Positions 578-20,671 of a stretch of 64,000 bases of DNA are shown piece after piece; positions within the stretch are counted from its first letter, which is position 1; each line of letters opens with the position of its first letter. The translations under genes and the position numbers were made by a program. The DNA is from an uncultured Acidobacteriota bacterium (GTDB lineage Bacteria > Acidobacteriota > Thermoanaerobaculia > Multivoradales > JAHEKO01): the NCBI GenBank assembly GCA_963713825.1, contig CAVQNG010000005.1, forward strand, positions 490,778-554,777, read 5' to 3'. The notes under the pieces were generated by a model, which saw only the letters and a list, made by a program, of their open reading frames with translations, ran no database searches and was not told where the DNA came from.

Positions 578-1648
578 TCAGCAGATACGAGGGAGCTGCT
601 CGCCGCTGAGCATGTCGACGACACGCATGCCGCCGACGCGGCTGCGGAGGTAGACGCGGCCATGGTGCTCGTCCACGACCTCGCCGATGATGGCCGCTTC
701 CTTGCCGAGTGGGTCGGAGCGCATCGCTTCGAGGACGTTGTCCGCCGCTTGCGGGGCCACGATCGCCAGGCATTTTCCTTCGTTGGCGACATAGAGGGGG
801 TCGAAGCCGAGGATCTCGCAGGCGCCGCGCACTTCTTCCTGCAACGGGATGGAGTGCTCGTCGAGCCGGAAGCCGATCTTGGATTGCTCGGCGATCTCGT
901 TGAGCGCACTGGCCACACCGCCACGGGTGGGGTCACGCAGCACATGCACGTCGTCCCCTCCGGCAGCCAGGACCTTCTCGACCAGCGGATAGAGGGTCGC
1001 CGAATCGCTCTCCAATTGGGTCTCGAACTCGAGACCTTCGCGCACCGACATGATGGCGATGCCGTGGACTGCGATCTGTCCGCTCACCAGCACCTTGTCG
1101 CCAACCTGCGCCTTGAGTGGAGTGATATCGACGCCATCGGGGATGATCCCGAGCCCGGTGGTGTTGATGTAGATGCCGTCCCCTTTACCCTTGTCCACCA
1201 CCTTCGTGTCTCCGGTGACCACTGACACACCAGCCTCATCGGCTGCCCTCTGCAGCGATTGGACGATGCGCCAGAGATCTTCCATTGGCAGGCCCTCTTC
1301 CAGGATGAACCCGGCCGACAGCGCCATCGGTTTGGCGCCGCACATGGCCAGGTCGTTGACCGTGCCGTGTACCGCCAGCGATCCAATGTCACCGCCAGGA
1401 AAGAAGAGCGGGCTGATGACGAAGGAGTCGGTGGAGAAGGCCAAGCGACTTCCGCCCACGCCCAGAATGGCCCCATCGTGGAGCATGTCGAGCTCCGGAT
1501 TGGCGAAGGCCTTGGCGAACATTCCTTCGATGAGAATCTGGGAGAGGCGCCCCCCGCCGCCGTGCGCGAGCTGCACAGATGGGTAGTCGCTCAGAGGGAT
1601 CGGGCACACCGCACCCGCGAACGTAATTTCGGAGCTGTCGTCGCTCAT
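578..1648 (-). CDS. hypE: Hydrogenase maturation protein HypE
   Basis: [27 protein letters not shown] and C-terminal LPRIC. Confidence 0.97.
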
Positions 1649-12766: not shown

Positions 12767-13168
12767 ATGAGCGAGCACGCAGCCAAGACCGTCAAAGAGC
12801 TCCGGAAGTTCGGCTTCGCATTCACGGGCGGTCTGACGCTTCTCGGTAGCCTGCTCCTCTGGCGGGGCAAGGCGCCGGGTCCCTATGTCCTGGGAGCGGC
12901 CGCTGTGGTCCTAACCCTGGCTCTGCTGGCACCTGCCGCGCTTCGACCGCTGGAAAAGACGCTCGCCACGATCTTCCGGTGGGTCACGGCTGCCCTGACT
13001 TACGTGATCCTGGTTGTGACCTACTATCTGGTGGTGACCCCGATGGGGATCATCATGCGACTTCTGGGCAAGGATCCCCTGCATTTGAAGCGAGAGCCGA
13101 ATCGACCATCCTTCTGGGTATCGGTAGAGGAGGATGGGCCGGCGTCGCGGCCGGACAAGCCGTACTAG
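12767..13168 (+). CDS. SxtJ-family membrane protein
   Basis: LRKFG...YYLVVTPMGIIMRLLGKDPL...PY; follows the carbamoyltransferase. Confidence 0.85.
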   Translation: MSEHAAKTVKELRKFGFAFTGGLTLLGSLLLWRGKAPGPYVLGAAAVVLTLALLAPAALRPLEKTLATIFRWVTAALTYVILVVTYYLVVTPMGIIMRLLGKDPLHLKREPNRPSFWVSVEEDGPASRPDKPY

Positions 13169-13375
13169 AGGGTCGAGGCGGCCGTCATGCTTCCGGCCGA
13201 TCTTTGAGGGCTTGGGGGTTGAAGAGGCCGTCGCTTGCTCCGGCCGGGTCTTTGGGGCGATGGGGCAGAGAAGTACTGAAGCGACCGGCGTCTCTGCCGG
13301 CCGGGGTGTGTGGGGGAGGGGAAGGTTCTTCTATAATCGAGATCTGATTAGTGGCTTTGAAGGGATAGGCAGCTC

Positions 13376-13534
13376 ATGGCATCGAATTCCAAGATCGGCA
13401 CCATCTGGGGCTTTCTCAAGACCCGCAAGAAGTGGTGGCTGACGCCCATCATTCTCACTCTGGTCCTGCTGGCGGCCCTGATCGTGCTGACCGAGTCCTC
13501 GGCGGTCGCGCCGTTCATCTACGCGTTGTTTTAG
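13376..13534 (+). CDS. DUF5989/SxtK-like 52-aa membrane protein (below the ORF-track cutoff)
   Basis: Manual translation MASNSKIGTIWGFLKTRKKWWLTPIILTLVLLAALIVLTESSAVAPFIYALF with the RKKWWL and APFIY.LF signatures. Confidence 0.9.
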   Translation: MASNSKIGTIWGFLKTRKKWWLTPIILTLVLLAALIVLTESSAVAPFIYALF

Positions 13535-13539
13535 GCGCG

Positions 13540-13935
13540 GGCTCGTACCTCGCCCACGCAGGGTAATGAGGGCTTGGGGTTGAGGAGTCCGGCGTTCCTT
13601 CGGGCAATCCTTGAGGCAGTGGGGCACTGAGGGCTTGGGGGTTGAGGCGCTCGGCGAGTGCGCCGAGCGGTCTTTGGGGGCTTGGGGGAAGACGGATTCA
13701 ATACCCCTCGGCCCTTACGCCCCTAAGCCCATCTGAATCGGCCGCCCCTACAGAGTAGACGCGTTTGAAGCGGCCGGACCTGTGCCGGCCGGGGAGCCCC
13801 AAGCCCCAGAACCCAAGCCCCCATTGCCTCAAAGGTCGGCCGGAGCAAGCGACGGACGATTCAACCCCCAAGCCCTCAAAGAATCGGCCTACACGAAGTG
13901 TGGCCGCCTCAACCCCCAGGCCCTCAAAGACCAGC
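13540..13935. repeat. Cluster of short GC-rich repeats (GGGCTTGGGGGTTGA and its inverse, GCGGCCGG..CCGGCCG palindromes); also 13195-13310 and 8625-8675
   Basis: Repeated motifs in both orientations in non-coding DNA. Confidence 0.6.
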
Positions 13936-13975
13936 CGAAGGTACGCCGGCTGGCTCAACCCTCTGTTCACATTCC

Positions 13976-14039
13976 CTACCCTCTAGGGTAGCTGCCAAAC
14001 CCACCCGACTGTGTGCCCCTCGACTACCCCCGGGGGTAT
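13976..14039. promoter_or_regulatory. Three tandem CYACCC-N4-GGGTRG sites upstream of the decaheme cytochrome
   Basis: CTACCC-TCTA-GGGTAG (13976), CCACCC-GACT-GTGTGC (14001), CTACCC-CCGG-GGGTAT (14024). Confidence 0.6.
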
Positions 14040-14056
14040 AAGAGGGGATCCCGAGC

Positions 14057-14074
14057 TTGTGCGAACCTTCACAA
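14057..14074. promoter_or_regulatory. Rex-like operator
   Basis: TTGTGCG-AACC-TTCACAA versus Rex consensus TTGTGAA-N4-TTCACAA. Confidence 0.6.
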
Positions 14075-14368
14075 GCGGAGGGCACAGGAGCCTTCAAGAA
14101 AGCTCATCCTGGCCCCCGCTTTCGGAACGACCCTTAGGGGGTAACGCAAGTTGTCTGGACTATCGTGGCGTTGTTGACCGACGGTTGAGGCGTGCTGGCA
14201 GCAGGCCTGCGACCATCAAGCTGTGTCGGCAGCAGCCGAAGCGGGCGGTACAAGGCGCGGATCCGACCCACACGCGAAGGCCAGCCTACTTGCATTTTCC
14301 CGAGGGGCCGCTCACGGGGGTGGGGGCCGTTTTCACCTGAATAGCGTTTCCGAGAGGGAGGTCTCGTA

Positions 14369-15304
14369 ATGAGATTTCATGGGAAGTTGCTGTTCCTGGT
14401 GGCATCAGCTGTCCTGTTGGTCGCGGCGGTAGCGACGGCGGGCGACGTACCGACGGCGGACAACGCCTACATCGGTAGCGAAGCCTGCCTGGACTGCCAT
14501 GAAGTGGCTGACTTGGGGCTCATGGAGCACGACGTGCACATGCAGATCCAATCTTTCGAAGTGCAGGGCCGCGAGGTCGGCTGCGAGGGCTGTCATGGCC
14601 CTGGCAAGCTGCATATGGAGGAGAGCGATCCGGAATTGATTCGCACCTTTGCTGATGATGCGGACTACTCCCAAGAAGTGTGCATGAACTGCCACGCCAC
14701 CAAGAACCTGCCGGAATGGGATGCCTCGATCCACGCACTCGAGGCCGTCCAGTGCACTGATTGTCACGGGGTGCACAAGAGGACGTTCAAGCCCAATGAA
14801 GCGTGCACAGCCTGCCACGCGGATGCGAGGGCCGCTTTCGAGCTGCCGTCGCACCATCCGCTACGCGAGGGCAAGATGGAATGCTCTAGCTGTCACGACC
14901 CACACTCTGCCACCGAGTTCATGCTCAAGACGCGCATGCGCAAGGCCGATCTTTGCTACACCTGTCATCAGGACAAAGAAGGCCCGTTCATCTTCGAGCA
15001 TCCCCCGGTGCAAGAGGACTGCAATCTCTGCCACACGCCGCACGGCTCCGTGGCCGACAACCTGCTCACCGCCAATGAGCCGACGTTGTGCTTGCAGTGC
15101 CATGACTTCCACTTTCACACCGGATACCGCGCCTCCGACAGCCTCGAAGTGGACGTTGGAGGAATCGAGCGAGAGAACCCGTTCGGTCCCGAGGGCTTCC
15201 AGATTGCCTACTCGACCAATTGCACGCAGTGCCATGCCCGGGTCCACGGATCCGACACCCCGTCGCAGACGCCGACGAACTACGGCAAGGGCCTGACCCA
15301 GTAA
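14369..15304 (+). CDS. Periplasmic decaheme cytochrome c, MtrA/DmsE family
   Basis: Signal peptide, 10 CXXCH, PSHHPLREG, GPFIFEHPPV, C-terminal CTQCH..VHGS. Confidence 0.92.
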   Translation: MRFHGKLLFLVASAVLLVAAVATAGDVPTADNAYIGSEACLDCHEVADLGLMEHDVHMQIQSFEVQGREVGCEGCHGPGKLHMEESDPELIRTFADDADYSQEVCMNCHATKNLPEWDASIHALEAVQCTDCHGVHKRTFKPNEACTACHADARAAFELPSHHPLREGKMECSSCHDPHSATEFMLKTRMRKADLCYTCHQDKEGPFIFEHPPVQEDCNLCHTPHGSVADNLLTANEPTLCLQCHDFHFHTGYRASDSLEVDVGGIERENPFGPEGFQIAYSTNCTQCHARVHGSDTPSQTPTNYGKGLTQ

Positions 15305-15316
15305 AGGAGGAGAGAG

Positions 15317-17482
15317 ATGAAAACAACCTATCGACTCCTACTGGTAGCTCTGGTAGTGGCAACGGTCCCGGCGGCGACGATGGCGGCTATCGGTGACGGT
15401 GGCACCATCATTGTCGAGCGGACTTTCTGGCTTGGATACTGGGACTCCAGCGTCGACGGATCTCCGGATCTCGCCGCCGAGTACCGAGTGATCGGTGACG
15501 GCCCCGACCTGGGCGTCAAGCTGAAGACCATCCACGAGTGGGGCGCAGTCGACTTCTACGGCCGGTATCGCGATTCGGCAGACCAGAAGTACAAACTGGA
15601 CTTCGACGTCAATCGCGTGTTCCGTTCACAGAATTTGCTCAATTCGCTCATCCATCGGCTCGGACATCAGCCGATCGAGCACTTCCAGGCGGCGACCAAT
15701 CATGGCCGTGTGGTGTGGGAGAGCGACCTCGATCCAGATTCGGAATACGACCTCAAGTACCAGGTCTTCGAGACCAAAAACGAGGTTCAGTTGCCGAGCG
15801 TCGACGGCCTTACGGTCGGTTTCGGCTATCGCAACCAGCAGCGTAAGGGGACGCGTCAGCACACGACGATTTCTCACTGCGATGCTTGTCATGTGAACAG
15901 TCAGGACCGGCCGACCGACGAGACCACGGACGACGCCTATATCGATCTGAAATACGCCTGGGCTTCGAACTTCGTTCGCGGCAGCTACACCGGGCGCAGC
16001 TATAGTGAGAGCCCACAGAACATCTCGCTACTGTTCGATGACGCGCTGCAACCGGAATTGAGAACCCCGGTTTTCGACAATCGTGTCCAGTGGGATGTCG
16101 ACGAAGGCCCGCAGCCCGTGGACCTGAAGCCGGACATCTCGAAGGACATCTTCAAACTCGACACCCTGATCAATACCAGCGGTTGGGGCATCGTCGGCGA
16201 AGGCGTCTGGTCTTCGACCGAGAACGACTACACACGCAACAAGACCGATTTCACCGGTTTCATGGCGAGTGTGGCCAAGCGTTTCGGCTCGGATCGGCGC
16301 TGGAACTTCCGCTGGCGGGGTCGTACCTACTCGGTTGACAATTCCACGGTGGAGTTGGTTCCGATCCAGCGGCCAGGTACGGCTGGACCGCAGTCACCGG
16401 GGACCTATGGTTCCTACTACCCCGATTGGCCGCAGACATTCACCCGACTGCCGGCAGTGAAACGGGACGTCCTCGAGTCGAAGGCCGATCTCGTCTTCGG
16501 TAGGTCCACTCGCGGTATCGGACAGTTCCGGTTCACCTGGAACTACGACAAGCAGGATCGTGAGTACTACGAAGTGGCCCCGGGAACGACCGACACCACG
16601 AAGAACCTGCTCGGTGTGTCCTGGTCGGCACGACCTGGGAAGGGTTGGAAGACGTATGCCGGCATCAAGTACGCCGACATCAGCAATCCCTTTCAGATCG
16701 TTGATGGCAAGTACTCGACGCTGGTCTCACAACCGTCCGGAGGCAGCCCCTTCGACCCGCGTGCGGCCCAGTACTGGCAGATGCACAACGCTCGCATCGC
16801 CGAAGGAACGACGTCGCCAGCGTCCTACTTCCAGGCTGACTTGCGTGGCACCTACCTGCACGACGGCAACATGCTGACGGCTTCGTACCGCTACTGGAAG
16901 GGTGACAACAATGACGGTGATCTGAATGACTGGGCGCGGGATTCCCAGGCCTTCAACATCACCTACTGGGCGACACCCTCGCCGGATTGGCAGTGGTACG
17001 TCGGTTACAACTACAACGACACCTCGATGGACACGGTGTTCACCATCCCGATCTTCGATGGGTGAGCGGGCTCCATTGTTTCGGGCCAGGCTGGCTCGGA
17101 TTCGAGCACGACCAAGTACACATCCACCGTCAACACCGGGATGGGTGGCCTGAAGTTCAAGGTCACAGAAGCATTCAAGATTGGTTTCGACCTGGCATAC
17201 GTCGATGCCACGGCTGGAATGGACTCATTCCGATTCGAAACCGCTGAAGCATGGGCGGCTACCAAGCCGAACCAGAACTACGACATGTCGCTGGTCAACA
17301 CCTATTCGGATCTCGACACCTCGCGATTCGAGTCGGACCTGTGGGCCAAGTTCGGCTTCGGGAAGTCTCTCTTCCTGTATGGCGACTGGCGGTATGTCGA
17401 CTATGCCGACGACGCGCCGTATCTCTACGACACGTCCGGCGAGATCAGCTGGTACACGCTCAGCCTAGGCTGGTCGTTCTGA
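15317..17482 (+). CDS. MtrB/PioB-like outer-membrane beta-barrel with one CXXCH and an in-frame UGA (17063-17065), probable selenocysteine; 721 aa if read through
   Basis: ORFs 15317-17065 and 17141-17482 share a frame with 25 sense codons between; signal peptide and CDACH in the first, terminal LSLGWSF beta-signal in the second. Confidence 0.8.
17066..17107 (+). promoter_or_regulatory. Candidate bacterial SECIS element
   Basis: Stem TTCGGGCC/GGCTCGGA (17080-17100) with loop AGGCT, loop G 24 nt after the UGA; lower stem GCTC/GAGC. Confidence 0.7.
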
Positions 17483-17519
17483 TGCACTTTCGTTAGCCTC
17501 CTTGGTGCATCGGTTCCAA

Positions 17520-17555
17520 GACCCCGCCCTTCATTGGGCGGGGTCGTTTTTGTTT
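17520..17555 (+). terminator. Rho-independent terminator
   Basis: GACCCCGCCC-ttcatt-GGGCGGGGTC followed by GTTTTTGTTT. Confidence 0.85.
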
Positions 17556-17756
17556 CAGGCCGGCGGAACTTCCGGCCCTTGATTGTCCTGGGGCTTGGGT
17601 CCTGGGTCGTGAAGGGTTGAAGCGGCCGTCGCCCCTGGCGGCCAGGGTGGGTGGGGGAACCGGATTTGCGGCGTCCGGCCACGGGTGATTGAATCGGCCG
17701 TCGCCTCTGTCGGCCGGGGTGGGCGGTGGTGTAGGGGAGGGCCTTGCGCCCTCCCG

Positions 17757-19337
17757 CTATGGTGCCAGCCAAGCGAGCGGTCGAATCTGCCCCAGATCCT
17801 GCTCCGCGGCCATCCTCTCCAACATCTCATGATCCACTTGGTACAACCTCCAGAACCCCTCTCTCGTGACCGGAACCAACGCTGGGACCAGCGCAACATT
17901 TTCGTGGTTCTCTGCGCTTCCGTTGGCCAAGACCACATCGAACCAGGCCAGATCGCTCAGCTTCAGGTTCCACGGCTCCCATTCGAGGTTGTGGGTCCAG
18001 GCGTGGCTGTAGGTTTCCTTGAACACCACCGGCATCGGGGCGAAGTTGGCGAAGGAGAAGGCGAGCGTCCCGCCGCCGCGCACCTGGGCGTAGGCAGGGA
18101 GCTGCAGAAAGGGCAGCCGCTTGATCACCTGGCTTCGTTGCTGCGTCTCGATGCCGAGAACTCGTGACTGCGGCGGTACCTGCTCCAGCGCCTGCTCGAA
18201 GCCCGAGAGCTCGTGACGCTCGTAGAAGCTCCAGAGGATGGCCAGCATCGCGACGAACAGAAGGGCGACGGCTGAGGTCCCGATTCGGGCGAGCGAGGGC
18301 TTGATTCTCGGTGCCGGTGCGGCCAGGACCAGCAGCACCAGCGCCGGTGCCGTCCACCGTTGCGCGAATTCGGTCGTCTGGTGGTAGAGATTGGGGAGCG
18401 CCAGTGCTGCGAGGAACAGCATCGATCCTGCGAGCGCGAGGGCCCCGTCACCCTCTTCTCGGAGGCTCTTGCGGTTCTGGACCAGCCCCACCGCGACCCA
18501 TAACAGGATCAGTCCGAGCATAACGATTTCCGTGGGGCCTCTGACCCCACCGAAGCCCGTGTTCACCAACCAGCTCGGATTCAGTCGTTGCCAAGGCATG
18601 GGAGCCCAGTCCACCGGAGACGTGAACTGCAGCTTCTCCAGGTTTCCGTACCAGAGGGCTGCAAGGACCAGTACTGGGGCCACAGCCGCGAATCGCCTCA
18701 GGCGTCGCTTCCGAAGAGGCAAGCGAGCCGCCACATCGTGGACCACCAACCAGATGAACCCGGCCACCAGCCAAAGGGCGTGGCTGAAATAGAGCAGCAG
18801 GAATCCCAGCAGCAGTTTCCACTCGGAGCGCTTTTCGGCCGGCTGGGTCGTCAGGTGGATCCACAAGAGAAACACCGGCAACCCGACTACGAAGGGAGCG
18901 AACCCCCAGTACATCGAGAGGCTGAAGAAGAAGAGGGATGCCAAGACCGCCGACGAGATGCTCCGCCCGCGGCTGGCCGCCAGCGCGTGGATCCCACCTG
19001 CCCAGGCCATTCCGAACAGCGCCATCCCGATCAGGCCGACCTTCATCGGCTCCACGAGCTTCCAGAGAGCCCCGAACACCAGATAGGCGATCCAGTAGGG
19101 CGTCAGCCACTGGACGCGATAGACCGAATCGGGATTCCCGAGGGTCTCGAAGAACAACCGCACCTGCGCCACATGCTGCGGCAAGTCCGCCGATGGAGGA
19201 ACATCCACCGCCAGAAACGGCACCACCATCAGTCCCATCGCCAGCAGCGCAAACCACAGCCTCGCTGAGTTCAGCTGCGCCCGAAGCGGCCGGCGCCCCT
19301 GCCGGCCGGGGTGTGCGCGGGATTGGTCAGGTCCCAT
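17757..19337 (-). CDS. Polytopic membrane protein, possible GT-C glycosyltransferase; true start may be downstream of 19337
   Basis: Many TM segments, DLPQH motif after the first helix, soluble C-terminal domain. Confidence 0.6.
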   Translation of the reverse strand: MGPDQSRAHPGRQGRRPLRAQLNSARLWFALLAMGLMVVPFLAVDVPPSADLPQHVAQVRLFFETLGNPDSVYRVQWLTPYWIAYLVFGALWKLVEPMKVGLIGMALFGMAWAGGIHALAASRGRSISSAVLASLFFFSLSMYWGFAPFVVGLPVFLLWIHLTTQPAEKRSEWKLLLGFLLLYFSHALWLVAGFIWLVVHDVAARLPLRKRRLRRFAAVAPVLVLAALWYGNLEKLQFTSPVDWAPMPWQRLNPSWLVNTGFGGVRGPTEIVMLGLILLWVAVGLVQNRKSLREEGDGALALAGSMLFLAALALPNLYHQTTEFAQRWTAPALVLLVLAAPAPRIKPSLARIGTSAVALLFVAMLAILWSFYERHELSGFEQALEQVPPQSRVLGIETQQRSQVIKRLPFLQLPAYAQVRGGGTLAFSFANFAPMPVVFKETYSHAWTHNLEWEPWNLKLSDLAWFDVVLANGSAENHENVALVPALVPVTREGFWRLYQVDHEMLERMAAEQDLGQIRPLAWLAP

Positions 19338-19530
19338 GTCGCGACTCTGGCGTATGCAGTCCGTGCTGGGTGGGGGATGTAGGGGCGGGGCTTGTCCCCG
19401 CCCGCGGACGCCCCTGCCGGCCGTTTGTCACTTTGGCCTGTGAGATGTCCTTTTTGGGTGCTAAGTGGTGTTTTTTGGACGGTGAGCTGTCATTGTTTGC
19501 TGCAGCGGCCGGCGCCCCTGCCGGCCGGGG
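19284..19530. repeat. Second REP-like family GCGGCCGGCGCCCCTGCCGGCCG (copies at ~19286, 19505; also ~10790, 13280, 17620, 17695, 47021, 55166)
   Basis: Recurrent ~23-bp imperfect palindrome. Confidence 0.75.
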
Positions 19531-19666
19531 AGTGTGGGGGTGCCCGGATCCGTGCCGGCCTTCCAACGACGAACTCGAATTGTCAGCTCCCATGCCGCCC
19601 CGACTCTAGCGCATGGCGGTTGGGTTGGGAGGGGGATGTAGGGGCGGGGCTTGCCCCCGCCCGCTG

Positions 19667-20086
19667 TCATGCATCTGCCGGCAGGATCCGAAACGGCTTC
19701 CCGCCAGCACCTCTCAGCGCCCGGAAGTGCCTGTGATCGAGCGTCAAGAGGTCGAGGACGTTTTGCTTCTCCGACAACACGACGATCGATGCATCGGCCA
19801 AGCCGATCCCCAGATCGGAGTACTGCTCGATGATCTCTCTAGCACGCTTGATGTCTGCGAGTTCGAAGGGAGCAAGATCATAGGCCCCACGCTCGACTTC
19901 TCGAAGAAGAGTGAGCTCTTTGGGGATACCCGCGAGCTTGGTAACCAGGTAGTCCAGCTCGGCGAGAACGAAGGGAGACAGAAACAAGAGTCCTTTGTTC
20001 TTGGTGAGAACCTTGGCGCAGTCTTTATGGCTGCGTTGGTCAGGAGATAGGGCGGCGAGCAATCCGCAGGAGTCGACCAGCATCAT
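19667..20086 (-). CDS. vapC: PIN-domain toxin VapC
   Basis: LVDS...LAELDY...LADASIV...LTLDHRHF acidic PIN residues. Confidence 0.9.
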   Translation of the reverse strand: MMLVDSCGLLAALSPDQRSHKDCAKVLTKNKGLLFLSPFVLAELDYLVTKLAGIPKELTLLREVERGAYDLAPFELADIKRAREIIEQYSDLGIGLADASIVVLSEKQNVLDLLTLDHRHFRALRGAGGKPFRILPADA

Positions 20087-20319
20087 GACTCGCCGAAGCC
20101 CTCGAGCAGCTCGTCCACGCGTTCTGCGGCAGTAGGATCGCCCAGGCCTTCCGAGAACAGTGGAATCGTGGGCTTGGGCCTTGGGCGTTGGTCGACAGCT
20201 CGCTGAATCGCAGCACGAATGATCTCCGCTTCGGAGCGCTTCTCCTCGGCGGCCATCTTCTCGAGATCTGCCTTCAGAGCTTCAGGGAGGTAAACCGTCG
20301 TCTTGATCATGCCATACAT
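20083..20319 (-). CDS. vapB: CopG/ribbon-helix-helix antitoxin VapB
   Basis: KTTVYLP...SEAEIIRAAI; 4-bp overlap with the toxin gene. Confidence 0.88.
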   Translation of the reverse strand: MYGMIKTTVYLPEALKADLEKMAAEEKRSEAEIIRAAIQRAVDQRPRPKPTIPLFSEGLGDPTAAERVDELLEGFGES

Positions 20320-20671
20320 TATGCCATACCTCGAAAGTCATTGATTCCGTTGCTATTTGTCAGCCATCACTGGTAGAGATGACGGGAAGTCGATGGAGGT
20401 TCTTGCAGACCATCTTGTGCAGGGCGGAACGTAGAGGAGGGGCTTGCCCCCTCCCACGGGCGCCCGCAAGGGGCGCCCCTACATTTGGCCGTCATGGATG
20501 GGAATGGGCGGGGAATGTAGGGGAGGGCCTTGCGCCCTCCCGGGGTGCCCCCTTGTGATCCCATTCCTTCGGGTGGGTCCGGATCCTGCCCTTTTAGGGC
20601 TTGGGTCCAGGGGGTCGGCCGGATACCATAGGCGCGGCCTCGGAGTCGAGGCCGTCTCTAGGAGGATTCCA

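What the first reader, a model, noticed from the sequence alone, without database searches (positions are those of the whole stretch)
14369..17482. Porin-cytochrome conduit whose porin looks like a heme-bearing selenoprotein (in-frame UGA + SECIS)
Seen: the barrel gene appears split at ...TIPIFDG-TGA, but the same frame runs on to a terminal LSLGWSF. The second part has no SD sequence or signal peptide, and the only terminator follows 17482. An 8-bp stem with an AGGCT loop has its G 24 nt after the UGA. The barrel also carries a CDACH motif. Knowledge: bacterial SECIS hairpins sit just 3' of the UGA with a G in the apical loop. I recall a Geobacter GSU2204-like CXXCH (seleno)protein family next to a decaheme gene, so the family may be catalogued but its function is unresolved. 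Inference: Sec583 may act as a heme ligand or a redox site at the outer membrane.
Basis: partly seen in the sequence, partly recalled or inferred. Interest (0 to 1): 0.85.

Follow-up and report, generated by a model that had tools for sequence, protein, structure and literature searches.

The report
Outer-membrane heme porin with selenocysteine
The apparently split porin gene is one gene read through a UGA as selenocysteine: it encodes an MtrB-like outer-membrane barrel with one heme motif, sits beside a ten-heme cytochrome, and belongs to a selenoprotein family that is already catalogued but has no known function.

Summary
Window 15317-17482 (+) is one reading frame with a single internal TGA at 17063-17065 (codon 583).

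- **Conservation of the TGA:** 54 related loci from other genomes have exactly one in-frame stop. It is always TGA and always sits in the same alignment column, inside a conserved motif. The frame runs on to the same C-terminus.
- **SECIS:** an 8-bp hairpin (17080-17100, loop AGGCU) meets all four criteria of the published bacterial SECIS model and shows compensatory base changes.
- **Sec machinery:** the genome has tRNA-Sec, SelA, SelB and SelD.
- **Cys counterpart:** two distant Desulfuromonas homologues have Cys there; the one whose DNA was read has TGC.
- **Fold:** the read-through models as a 26-strand barrel. Its best structural match is MtrB (6R2Q chain B).
- **Partner gene:** a decaheme gene lies directly upstream in all 53 loci that have upstream DNA.

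The family is already catalogued as NCBIfam NF041027, "GSU2204 family CXXCH-containing (seleno)protein". It is paired with NF041028 and listed in the selenoprotein tables of reviews from 2022 and 2026. This is therefore a new acidobacterial member of a known, uncharacterised family.

The parts
14369..15304 (+). Periplasmic decaheme c-type cytochrome gene (311 aa, stop TAA), with a hydrophobic N-terminal leader read by eye and ten CXXCH motifs
   Evidence: NF041028 GSU2203 family scores 345.5 bits (cut-off 325) and TIGR03508 DmsE family decaheme scores 226.8 (cut-off 192.2). The ten CXXCH motifs are invariant in 25 aligned sequences. A homologue lies directly upstream of the barrel gene in 53 of 57 related loci; the other 4 have no upstream DNA.
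15305..15310 (+). Shine-Dalgarno AGGAGG of the barrel gene
   Evidence: Read directly from the sequence.
15317..17482 (+). Single gene for a 721-residue outer-membrane barrel selenoprotein (GSU2204 family). The N-terminal leader is about residues 1-24, read by eye; no predictor was run. The terminal stop is TGA.
   Evidence: One frame. NF041027 matches residues 11-582, ending exactly before the TGA. The model has 26 long strands, mean pLDDT 84.5 and pTM 0.78. The top fold match is MtrB, 6r2q_B, E 1e-19.
15878..15892 (+). CDACH heme-c attachment motif (residues 188-192) at the tip of the long beta-hairpin formed by strands 7 and 8
   Evidence: C188, C191 and H192 are invariant in A3 (52 sequences, including the Desulfuromonas thiophila homologue P0093) and in 54 of 54 read-through rows that cover them.
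17063..17065 (+). In-frame UGA, read as selenocysteine 583
   Evidence: 55 of 55 aligned rows (window plus 54 loci) carry TGA here. L080 has TGC and P0093 has Cys at the aligned place.
17080..17100 (+). SECIS-type hairpin: 8-bp stem (17080-17087 with 17093-17100) and loop AGGCU (17088-17092)
   Evidence: 92.1% of cells are paired against 75.7% in shuffles. 60 cells changed on both sides against 23.7. Slid controls pair at most 62.7%. The hairpin energy is at or below -7.5 kcal/mol in 54 of 54 sequences.
17066..17479 (+). Post-UGA part of the same protein (138 residues): barrel strands 22-26, ending in an aromatic residue (F)
   Evidence: Conserved in frame in all 54 loci. Substitutions are biased to the third codon position. 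The strands are those of the model.
17520..17555 (+). Intrinsic-terminator-like hairpin (10 pairs, 9 of them G-C) with a T-rich tail, closing the two-gene operon

Best explanation
Window 14369-17482 is a two-gene operon for a porin-cytochrome conduit.

**The genes.** The first gene encodes a Sec-pathway-exported MtrA/DmsE-like decaheme of the GSU2203 family. The second is a single gene whose UGA at codon 583 is decoded as selenocysteine. SelB and tRNA-Sec are recruited by a hairpin 14 nt downstream of the UGA. The product is a 721-residue, 26-strand MtrB-like outer-membrane barrel of the GSU2204 family.

**What is shown.**
- The UGA sits in a conserved in-frame context.
- The hairpin co-varies across homologues.
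- The genome has the Sec machinery.
- Distant homologues have Cys at the position.
- The model has an MtrB-like fold.
- The decaheme gene is an obligate neighbour.

**What is inferred.**
- The decaheme threads the barrel as MtrA threads MtrB (about 0.7).
- The invariant CXXCH at the tip of the long hairpin of strands 7/8 carries a covalently bound c-type heme.
- Sec583 lies in the loop between the equally long strands 21/22. Both sites are on the face that carries all the long loops, which by the usual outer-membrane-protein rule is the cell-surface mouth.
- No MtrC-like surface cytochrome gene lies within about 3.5 kb on either side of the operon in the window (context in other loci not checked). 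The barrel's own heme and selenol may therefore form the terminal, outward-facing redox site. It would be fed by the decaheme and would act on chalcogen substrates (polysulfide/S0, selenite) or metal substrates, by analogy with the Sec-plus-heme site of MccSep. I put this last step at about 0.25-0.3.
For: **One gene, not two**
- Single frame.
- NF041027 "GSU2204_Se_pt_1" scores 451.4 bits (cut-off 350) and ends at residue 582.
- 91 of 92 database homologues are 481-607 aa, the lengths expected if most stop at this point (a few are partial).
- 54 of 57 genome loci cover the site in one frame. All 54 have exactly one in-frame stop, always TGA and always in the same column.
- Downstream of the TGA, differences from three close relatives fall at codon positions 1/2/3 as 10/6/20, 15/13/31 and 25/21/45.
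- Of 71 library proteins that match the post-UGA piece, 69 are orphan ORFs of 47-160 aa and none is a fused full-length form.

**SECIS**
- The pair counts and slid controls favour the hairpin.
- All four criteria of the consensus model are met in the window: 5-nt loop, 8-bp stem, loop pattern A-G-G-C-U, 22 nt between UGA and loop, and energy -11.2 kcal/mol. The criteria are as quoted in the Fig. 2 legend of PMC13188914.

**Sec machinery**
- tRNA-Sec 69.2 bits (cut-off 47).
- SelB 320.3 bits, or 353.1 with its neighbours in the frame.
- SelA 460.9 bits.
- SelD 339.5 bits, with its own in-frame TGA.

**TGA is otherwise a stop**
- TGA ends 5 of the 8 ORFs checked around the site, including this gene itself.

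**Cys/Sec pair**
- P0093 has Cys and L080 has TGC at the aligned position.

**Fold and partner**
- Model statistics.
- 6r2q_B: E 1e-19, TM 0.65/0.72. The next hit has E 2.7e-8 and TM 0.33.
- Decaheme directly upstream in 53 of 57 loci, with ten invariant CXXCH motifs.

**Precedent for Sec acting beside a heme**
- MccSep, PMC13510729: abstract and Discussion read.
Against: - There is no experimental evidence for selenium or heme in any member of the family. I saw only database names and review tables.
- No Rfam SECIS family matches, and the wider 81-nt region is not unusually stable.
- The hairpin overlaps strongly conserved codons (GGQDG), so part of its conservation could be protein-driven. 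The compensatory changes argue against this being the whole explanation.
- Strands 7/8 and 21/22 are 13-14 strands apart in a 26-strand barrel, roughly opposite walls. The heme and Sec meet only if both long hairpins bend inward. This could not be measured because no coordinates were returned.
- The assignment of the long-loop face to the cell surface rests on a rule recalled from general knowledge of outer-membrane proteins. It was not tested.
- The window's protein lacks the Cys466/Cys576 pair that 40 of 55 homologues carry next to the Sec. Any mechanism that needs a nearby thiol is therefore not universal.
Confidence: 0.85

Rival explanations
1. The TGA is a genuine stop. Two polypeptides are made, a 582-residue, 21-strand fragment and a separately translated C-terminal 5-strand piece, and they assemble into a split barrel.
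For: Gene callers split the gene this way. 91 of 92 database homologues end at or before this point, and 69 of the 71 library proteins that match the post-UGA piece are short stand-alone ORFs. An ATG exists at 17141.
Against: The piece has no Shine-Dalgarno sequence and no signal peptide (direct reading), so it could not reach the outer membrane. The 25 codons between the TGA and that ATG are among the best conserved of the protein. The stop is TGA in 55 of 55 rows and never TAA or TAG. The hairpin co-varies. Desulfuromonas homologues are continuous, with Cys at the site.
Confidence: 0.04
2. UGA is recoded, but not as Sec. It is read through by a near-cognate or suppressor tRNA (Trp, Cys or Gly), or the organism reassigns TGA.
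For: The frame is open under any code that gives TGA a residue.
Against: TGA ends 5 of the 8 ORFs checked around the site, including this gene, so there is no general reassignment. The genome has a complete Sec machinery. The hairpin fits the SECIS model. The Cys counterpart in distant homologues is the classic Cys/Sec pair.
Confidence: 0.04
3. The gene is a pseudogene, or the TGA is an assembly or sequencing error for TGC or TGG.
For: A single internal stop in a metagenome-type assembly could in principle be an error.
Against: The same TGA occurs in 54 other assemblies. An independent run holds a contig identical across the site (record 20). Selection on the downstream frame is intact.
Confidence: 0.01
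4. The protein is a real selenoprotein and a real conduit, but Sec583 has nothing to do with the barrel's heme. It could form a structural or redox selenenyl-sulfide, contact the decaheme, or bind a metal or chalcogen on its own.
For: Sec and CXXCH lie on hairpins about 13-14 strands apart in the model. 40 of 55 homologues carry a strictly co-occurring Cys466/Cys576 pair, with Cys576 seven residues before Sec. That would suit thiol/selenol chemistry without a heme.
Against: Both sites are the only invariant Cys/Sec positions. Both sit on unusually long hairpins on the same face. The window's own protein lacks the Cys pair.
Confidence: 0.5

Closest known systems
GSU2204 family CXXCH-containing (seleno)protein (NCBIfam NF041027), with its neighbour the GSU2203 family decaheme (NF041028, OmcK in Geobacter sulfurreducens)
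   Same: Both profiles score above their curated cut-offs. The NF041027 profile ends exactly at the residue before the UGA. The CXXCH motif, the decaheme neighbour and the Sec/Cys position are all shared. [quoted passage not shown]
   Different: The window's protein shares only 22% identity with the Desulfuromonas member. Its nearest relatives are labelled Thermoanaerobaculia or Acidobacteriota. In this branch the site is TGA in 55 of 55 rows and no Cys form was found. The family has no assigned function. The only experimental data I saw were 2.4-fold and 2.7-fold up-regulation of GSU2204 and GSU2203 with hematite (table in PMC4070692).
MtrB-MtrA of the Shewanella MtrCAB complex (PDB 6R2Q)
   Same: The barrel is modelled with 26 strands and its best fold match is MtrB (E 1e-19, TM 0.65/0.72). 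The partner is a DmsE/MtrA-family decaheme (TIGR03508, 226.8 bits). The genes are adjacent.
   Different: The Pfam MtrB_PioB score is below its gathering cut-off (20 bits against 23). No MtrC-like surface cytochrome gene lies within about 3.5 kb of the operon. To my recollection MtrB carries neither a CXXCH motif nor Sec; I did not check this here.
MccSep / ExtKL (GSU2936), the pentaheme selenoprotein polysulfide reductase of Geobacter (NF040886)
   Same: It combines c-type heme with one selenocysteine in a respiratory protein of the cell envelope. Sec acts as the nucleophile beside a His/Cys-ligated heme, and the enzyme reduces polysulfide and selenite (PMC13510729, abstract and Discussion).
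   Different: It belongs to an unrelated family. NF040886 does not match the window's protein, and the own genome has no NF040886 match above the cut-off. MccSep is a soluble periplasmic tetramer, not an outer-membrane barrel. The resemblance is mechanistic analogy only.
Two-component porin-cytochrome conduits without a surface cytochrome (PioAB, MtoAB)
   Same: Each pairs a decaheme with an MtrB/PioB-like barrel in a two-gene unit.
   Different: These systems are recalled from memory and were not tested here. As far as I recall, their barrels carry no heme motif and no Sec.

Membership tests
NCBIfam NF041027 GSU2204 family CXXCH-containing (seleno)protein | Profile score above the curated cut-off (350 bits) | tested here: met
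   451.4 bits over residues 11-582; 452.5 bits on the genome.
NCBIfam NF041027 GSU2204 family CXXCH-containing (seleno)protein | Conserved CXXCH motif | tested here: met
   CDACH at residues 188-192. The motif is invariant in 52 aligned sequences and in 54 of 54 rows that cover it.
NCBIfam NF041027 GSU2204 family CXXCH-containing (seleno)protein | Sec (UGA) or Cys directly after the end of the part-1 profile, with the barrel continuing | tested here: met
   TGA at codon 583 with 138 further conserved residues. Desulfuromonas has Cys/TGC.
NCBIfam NF041027 GSU2204 family CXXCH-containing (seleno)protein | Adjacent GSU2203-family decaheme gene (NF041028) | tested here: met
   345.5 bits against a cut-off of 325. 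The gene is directly upstream in 53 of 57 loci; the remaining 4 lack upstream DNA.
Bacterial selenoprotein (general criteria) | In-frame UGA conserved among homologues, with conserved flanks on both sides | tested here: met
   55 of 55 rows. Substitutions downstream are biased to the third codon position.
Bacterial selenoprotein (general criteria) | Bacterial SECIS: 3-9 nt loop, 4-16 bp stem, G in the first two loop positions, 16-37 nt from the UGA, energy at or below -7.5 kcal/mol (criteria from PMC13188914 Fig. 2 legend) | tested here: met
   Loop AGGCU, 8-bp stem, 22 nt spacing, -11.2 kcal/mol. 54 of 54 homologues are at or below -7.5 kcal/mol. The stem co-varies. No Rfam SECIS family matched.
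Bacterial selenoprotein (general criteria) | selA, selB, selC and selD present in the genome | tested here: met
   all score above their cut-offs.
Bacterial selenoprotein (general criteria) | Homologues with Cys at the Sec position | tested here: met
   P0093 and L080. None was found within the acidobacterial branch.
Bacterial selenoprotein (general criteria) | Selenium shown in the protein | not testable with these tools
   This needs 75Se labelling or mass spectrometry.
Pfam PF11854 MtrB_PioB outer-membrane barrel | Profile score above the gathering cut-off (23 bits) | tested here: not met
   20.0 bits, E 2.9e-4, over residues 152-237 only. The fold is nonetheless MtrB-like.
MtrAB-type porin-cytochrome complex | 26-strand barrel wide enough to sheathe a decaheme | tested here: met
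   26 long strands in the model. Top match 6r2q_B. This rests on a model, not a solved structure.
MtrAB-type porin-cytochrome complex | Decaheme physically inserted in the barrel | not tested
   No complex prediction was obtained. The claim rests on gene adjacency and analogy.
MccSep/ExtKL (NF040886) | Profile match | tested here: not met
   NF041027 is the only NCBIfam hit of the read-through protein at E <= 0.1.

The most novel reading that the evidence does not exclude
The barrel itself may be the terminal enzyme of the conduit. The c-type heme on hairpin 7/8 and Sec583 on hairpin 21/22 would meet over the outer mouth of the pore and form a seleno-heme active site. Either Sec would be the sixth ligand of the heme (a natural His/Sec-ligated heme, with His/Cys in the Desulfuromonas forms), or it would be a nucleophile beside the heme as in MccSep. 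Such a site would let the cell reduce insoluble or extracellular chalcogen or metal substrates (S0/polysulfide, selenite, possibly metal oxides) at the cell surface without any MtrC-like cytochrome.
Probability: 0.2. Interest if true: 0.8.

Novelty: new member of a known kind. Interest (0 to 1): 0.4.

Why it matters
Gene callers split this gene at the UGA. The conduit is therefore easily missed in sediment Acidobacteriota, where 47 of 301 genomes sampled from the class carry it above the family cut-off.

The biology is also unusual. An integral outer-membrane beta-barrel with both a heme attachment motif and a strictly conserved selenocysteine has no described function. MccSep has now been shown to use Sec beside a heme for polysulfide respiration. 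The authors of that work state that the outer-membrane leg of sulfur respiration is unknown (PMC13510729, Discussion). This family is a concrete candidate for redox chemistry at the outer membrane.

None of this is new as a catalogue entry. The new contributions are the comparative proof for this branch, the co-varying SECIS, and the structural placement of the two sites.

Tried and rejected
- **Rfam**: no SECIS family or any other match above its gathering score in 13000-19000.
- **Fold of 81 nt around the site**: not more stable than shuffles, and the minimum-energy fold did not use the hairpin. With 60 nt starting at the UGA, the five inner pairs are in the minimum-energy fold in 49 of 54 sequences.
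- **Complex prediction** of barrel plus decaheme: no result was obtained, so physical insertion of the decaheme stays untested.
- **Origin of the family's selenoprotein status:** the reviews cite Zhang and Gladyshev 2008 (PMC2398784). That paper's main text holds none of "cytochrome", "outer membrane" or "MtrB". Neither do PMC1976440 or PMC5029168. I did not open supplements. The two Haft papers (PMC9879109, PMC12013261) are not held. I therefore cannot say where, or whether, the family was first described in print beyond the review tables.
- **Literature searches:** "GSU2204" gave 2 papers and "GSU2203" gave 2 papers. A search for selenoprotein, MtrB, porin and selenocysteine with at least 3 of the 4 terms gave 58 papers, of which 20 were listed. 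None of the four papers I opened from these searches (PMC13188914, PMC4070692, PMC9312934, PMC13510729) describes experiments on the protein itself.
- **Search for fused Cys forms** using the post-UGA piece: a word-based search among longer proteins found none (the tool itself calls this weak evidence). The exhaustive search found 0 fused forms among 71 hits. Two longer hits, P0108 (1996 aa) and P0145 (386 aa), match in many short stretches and were not examined.
- **Public runs**: all are assembled contigs, so they say nothing about expression or strand. An RNA-library contig identical over 17223-17459 is not evidence of transcription.
- **L057** (frameshifted match), **L045** and **L064** (contigs end before the site) were left out of the counts.
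- **Sec-heme distance:** not measurable, because model coordinates are not returned.
Full report
**1. The observation**

ORF 15317-17065 (582 aa) ends ...TIPIFDG followed by TGA. The ORF at 17141-17482 lies in the same frame. Reading TGA as U gives one 721-residue product ending LSLGWSF, followed by a second TGA that is the real stop.

- CDACH is residues 188-192, window 15878-15892.
- AGGAGG (15305-15310) precedes the first ATG. Nothing comparable precedes the ATG at 17141.
- On the + strand of 13600-17800 the only terminator-like sites start at 17520 and 17558, both after the gene.
- The 8-bp stem is 17080-17087 paired with 17093-17100, with loop AGGCU. Its first G lies 24 nt after the A of UGA.

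The description is accurate in every point.

**2. Is the UGA real and conserved?**

A search of the 5.8-billion-protein collection with the read-through gave 92 hits.
- 91 are 481-607 aa long and cover at most 81% of the query, so their reading frames end at or before this point.
- The remaining hit, P0093, is a full-length 810-aa Desulfuromonas thiophila protein that a source names "GSU2204 family CXXCH-containing (seleno)protein".

DNA of 57 related loci was fetched from species-representative genomes. Most are labelled Thermoanaerobaculia, Holophagae or Acidobacteriota, and identity to the window ranges from 24% to 88%.
- Two contigs end before the site and one match is frameshifted.
- The other 54 each have exactly one in-frame stop, and it is always TGA.
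- Aligned with the window, all 55 rows have the TGA in one column. It sits inside a conserved motif (IP-x-FDG, U, AG, then GGQ-x-G), and the frame continues to a conserved C-terminus.

Downstream of the TGA, differences from the three closest relatives fall mostly on third codon positions (10/6/20, 15/13/31 and 25/21/45), as they do upstream.

Contigs from public runs cover the site. One is identical over 16945-17083. No difference at 17063-17065 is listed, although 25 rows of that table were not shown and the best holder may be the source sample.

TGA is not reassigned. It terminates 5 of the 8 ORFs checked around the site, including this gene.

**3. SECIS**

The 72-nt stretches around the TGA of 54 sequences align without gaps. 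Results for the named 8-bp helix:

| Measure | Observed | Control |
|---|---|---|
| Cells that form a standard pair | 92.1% | 75.7% in shuffles (0 of 500 reach the observed value) |
| Cells changed on both sides | 60 | 23.7 |
| Covariation score | 0.369 | 0.091 |
| Cells paired in slid registers | - | at most 62.7% |

- One pair occurs as U-A (22 sequences), A-U (16), G-C (12) and G-U (3).
- The measure "pairs with a change on both sides" (4) does not exceed the shuffles: 466 of 500 reach it.

The consensus bacterial SECIS model is quoted in the Fig. 2 legend of the 2026 review. It requires a 3-9 nt loop, a 4-16 bp stem, G in the first two loop positions (pattern N1-G-[G/U]-N-N2), 16-37 nt between UGA and loop, and an energy at or below -7.5 kcal/mol. 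The window has a 5-nt loop A-G-G-C-U, 8 bp, 22 nt and -11.2 kcal/mol. All 54 homologues are at or below -7.5 kcal/mol, and their loops all begin AG followed by G or U.

Two results count against the hairpin. No Rfam family matched. An 81-nt fold around the site is not more stable than shuffles and did not use the hairpin.

**4. Sec machinery and the Cys counterpart**

The window's genome is 5.4 Mb and 96% complete. It encodes:
- tRNA-Sec, 69.2 bits against a cut-off of 47;
- SelB;
- SelA;
- SelD, which itself has an in-frame TGA.

In pairwise alignment, the Cys of P0093 aligns with residue 583. A second Desulfuromonas locus has TGC there, and a decaheme gene upstream.

Within the acidobacterial branch no Cys form was found.
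- 55 of 55 rows have TGA.
- The word-based search found no longer protein containing the post-UGA piece.
- In the exhaustive search of 1.84 billion representatives, 69 of 71 hits are orphan ORFs of 47-160 aa and none is a fused barrel.

**5. What the protein is**

NCBIfam NF041027, "GSU2204_Se_pt_1", matches residues 11-582 with 451.4 bits (cut-off 350). The profile stops exactly where the Sec falls. The upstream gene matches NF041028, the GSU2203 family decaheme (345.5 bits, cut-off 325), and the DmsE-family decaheme model. Pfam MtrB_PioB is hit only weakly and below its cut-off.

An AlphaFold2 model was built on 52 sequences. It has mean pLDDT 84.5 and pTM 0.78 and shows 26 long strands.
- Foldseek's best PDB match is MtrB of the Mtr complex (6r2q_B): E 1e-19, TM 0.65/0.72.
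- The next match has E 2.7e-8 and TM 0.33.
- The post-UGA part supplies strands 22-26, so a protein ending at residue 582 could not close the barrel.

In the model, all long connections join an odd strand to the next even strand. CXXCH sits at the tight tip of the unusually long strands 7/8 (165-187 and 191-215). Sec583 sits in the loop 581-590 between the equally long strands 21/22 (558-580 and 591-617). Both are therefore on the long-loop face. By the usual rule for outer-membrane barrels, which I recall from general knowledge and did not test, that face is the cell surface.

The two hairpins are 13-14 strands apart, roughly opposite walls. Contact would require both to bend inward. No coordinates are returned, so the distance is unknown.

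Apart from the CXXCH and U583, the best-conserved possible heme ligands are His113 (51 of 55), His117 (49 of 55) and His187 (53 of 54).

**6. Context**

The decaheme has ten invariant CXXCH motifs. It lies directly upstream in 53 of 57 loci, and the other four have no upstream DNA.

The neighbours in the window are unrelated: a carbamoyltransferase, an SxtJ-like protein, a membrane protein with no family, a PIN/RHH pair and a ChaN-PDZ protein. No MtrC-like gene lies within about 3.5 kb on either side of the operon in the window.

The genome has one copy of the family and no MccSep/ExtKL orthologue above the cut-off. Among 301 genomes sampled from the class, 47 (G000 included) have a match above the cut-off. 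Most of these genomes lie in one family, f16.

**7. Mechanism**

Shown:
- one gene;
- Sec decoding signals;
- an MtrB-like fold;
- an obligate decaheme partner.

Inferred:
- The decaheme threads the barrel as in MtrAB.
- The barrel carries one c-type heme.
- The heme and the selenol lie at the outer mouth and serve as the terminal redox site, in place of a surface cytochrome.

MccSep (GSU2936) is a precedent for Sec working beside a heme. It is a pentaheme selenoprotein in which Sec attacks polysulfide or selenite next to a His/Cys-ligated heme. Its authors note that the outer-membrane route for sulfur species is unknown (PMC13510729, abstract and Discussion). This is an analogy and not homology.

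**8. Novelty**

The family is catalogued by NCBIfam. It appears in the selenoprotein tables of a 2022 review and a 2026 review (passages seen). I could not find its primary description in the main texts of the three cited-type papers I opened, and the Haft papers are not held.

Searches for GSU2204 and GSU2203 returned three distinct papers between them. The only functional data in the two I opened are transcript changes with iron oxides.

The window's gene is a new member of a known but uncharacterised family. The surprise value is moderate.

Noticed in passing
Residues 466 and 576 of the barrel (window 16712-16714 and 17042-17044) compared with loci L022-L079: 40 of 55 homologues have Cys at both positions and 15, the window among them, have Cys at neither. 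No sequence has only one. This strictly co-occurring pair lies seven residues before the Sec and looks like a disulfide or a redox partner that the window's subclade has lost.
   Followed up: partly
G000:C25:839157-840080 (-), outside the window: The genome's SelD match (339.5 bits) contains one in-frame TGA, so SelD is probably itself a selenoprotein here.
   Followed up: no
window 13201-13882, 17617-17756, 19281-19664 and 20430-20542: Families of GC-rich, partly palindromic repeats of 27-65 nt fill the intergenic DNA on both sides of the operon. One 41-nt unit has 7 copies and one 27-nt unit has 5. They resemble REP-type elements and generate many spurious ORFs.
   Followed up: partly
window 815-1546 (-) (G000:C5:491592-492323): A weak match to the SelD profile (33.8 bits, below the cut-off) in a 369-aa open frame. 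It is probably another member of the AIR-synthase/PurM-like superfamily rather than SelD.
   Followed up: no
window 19667-20319 (-): A PIN-domain and ribbon-helix-helix gene pair (VapBC-type toxin-antitoxin) lies just downstream of the operon.
   Followed up: no
Genomes of the same class: Many genomes have weaker NF041027 matches (20-60 bits) inside uninterrupted open frames of 750-1080 aa. These look like Sec-free MtrB/PioB-like paralogues and could serve as outgroups for dating the gain of Sec and CXXCH.
   Followed up: no
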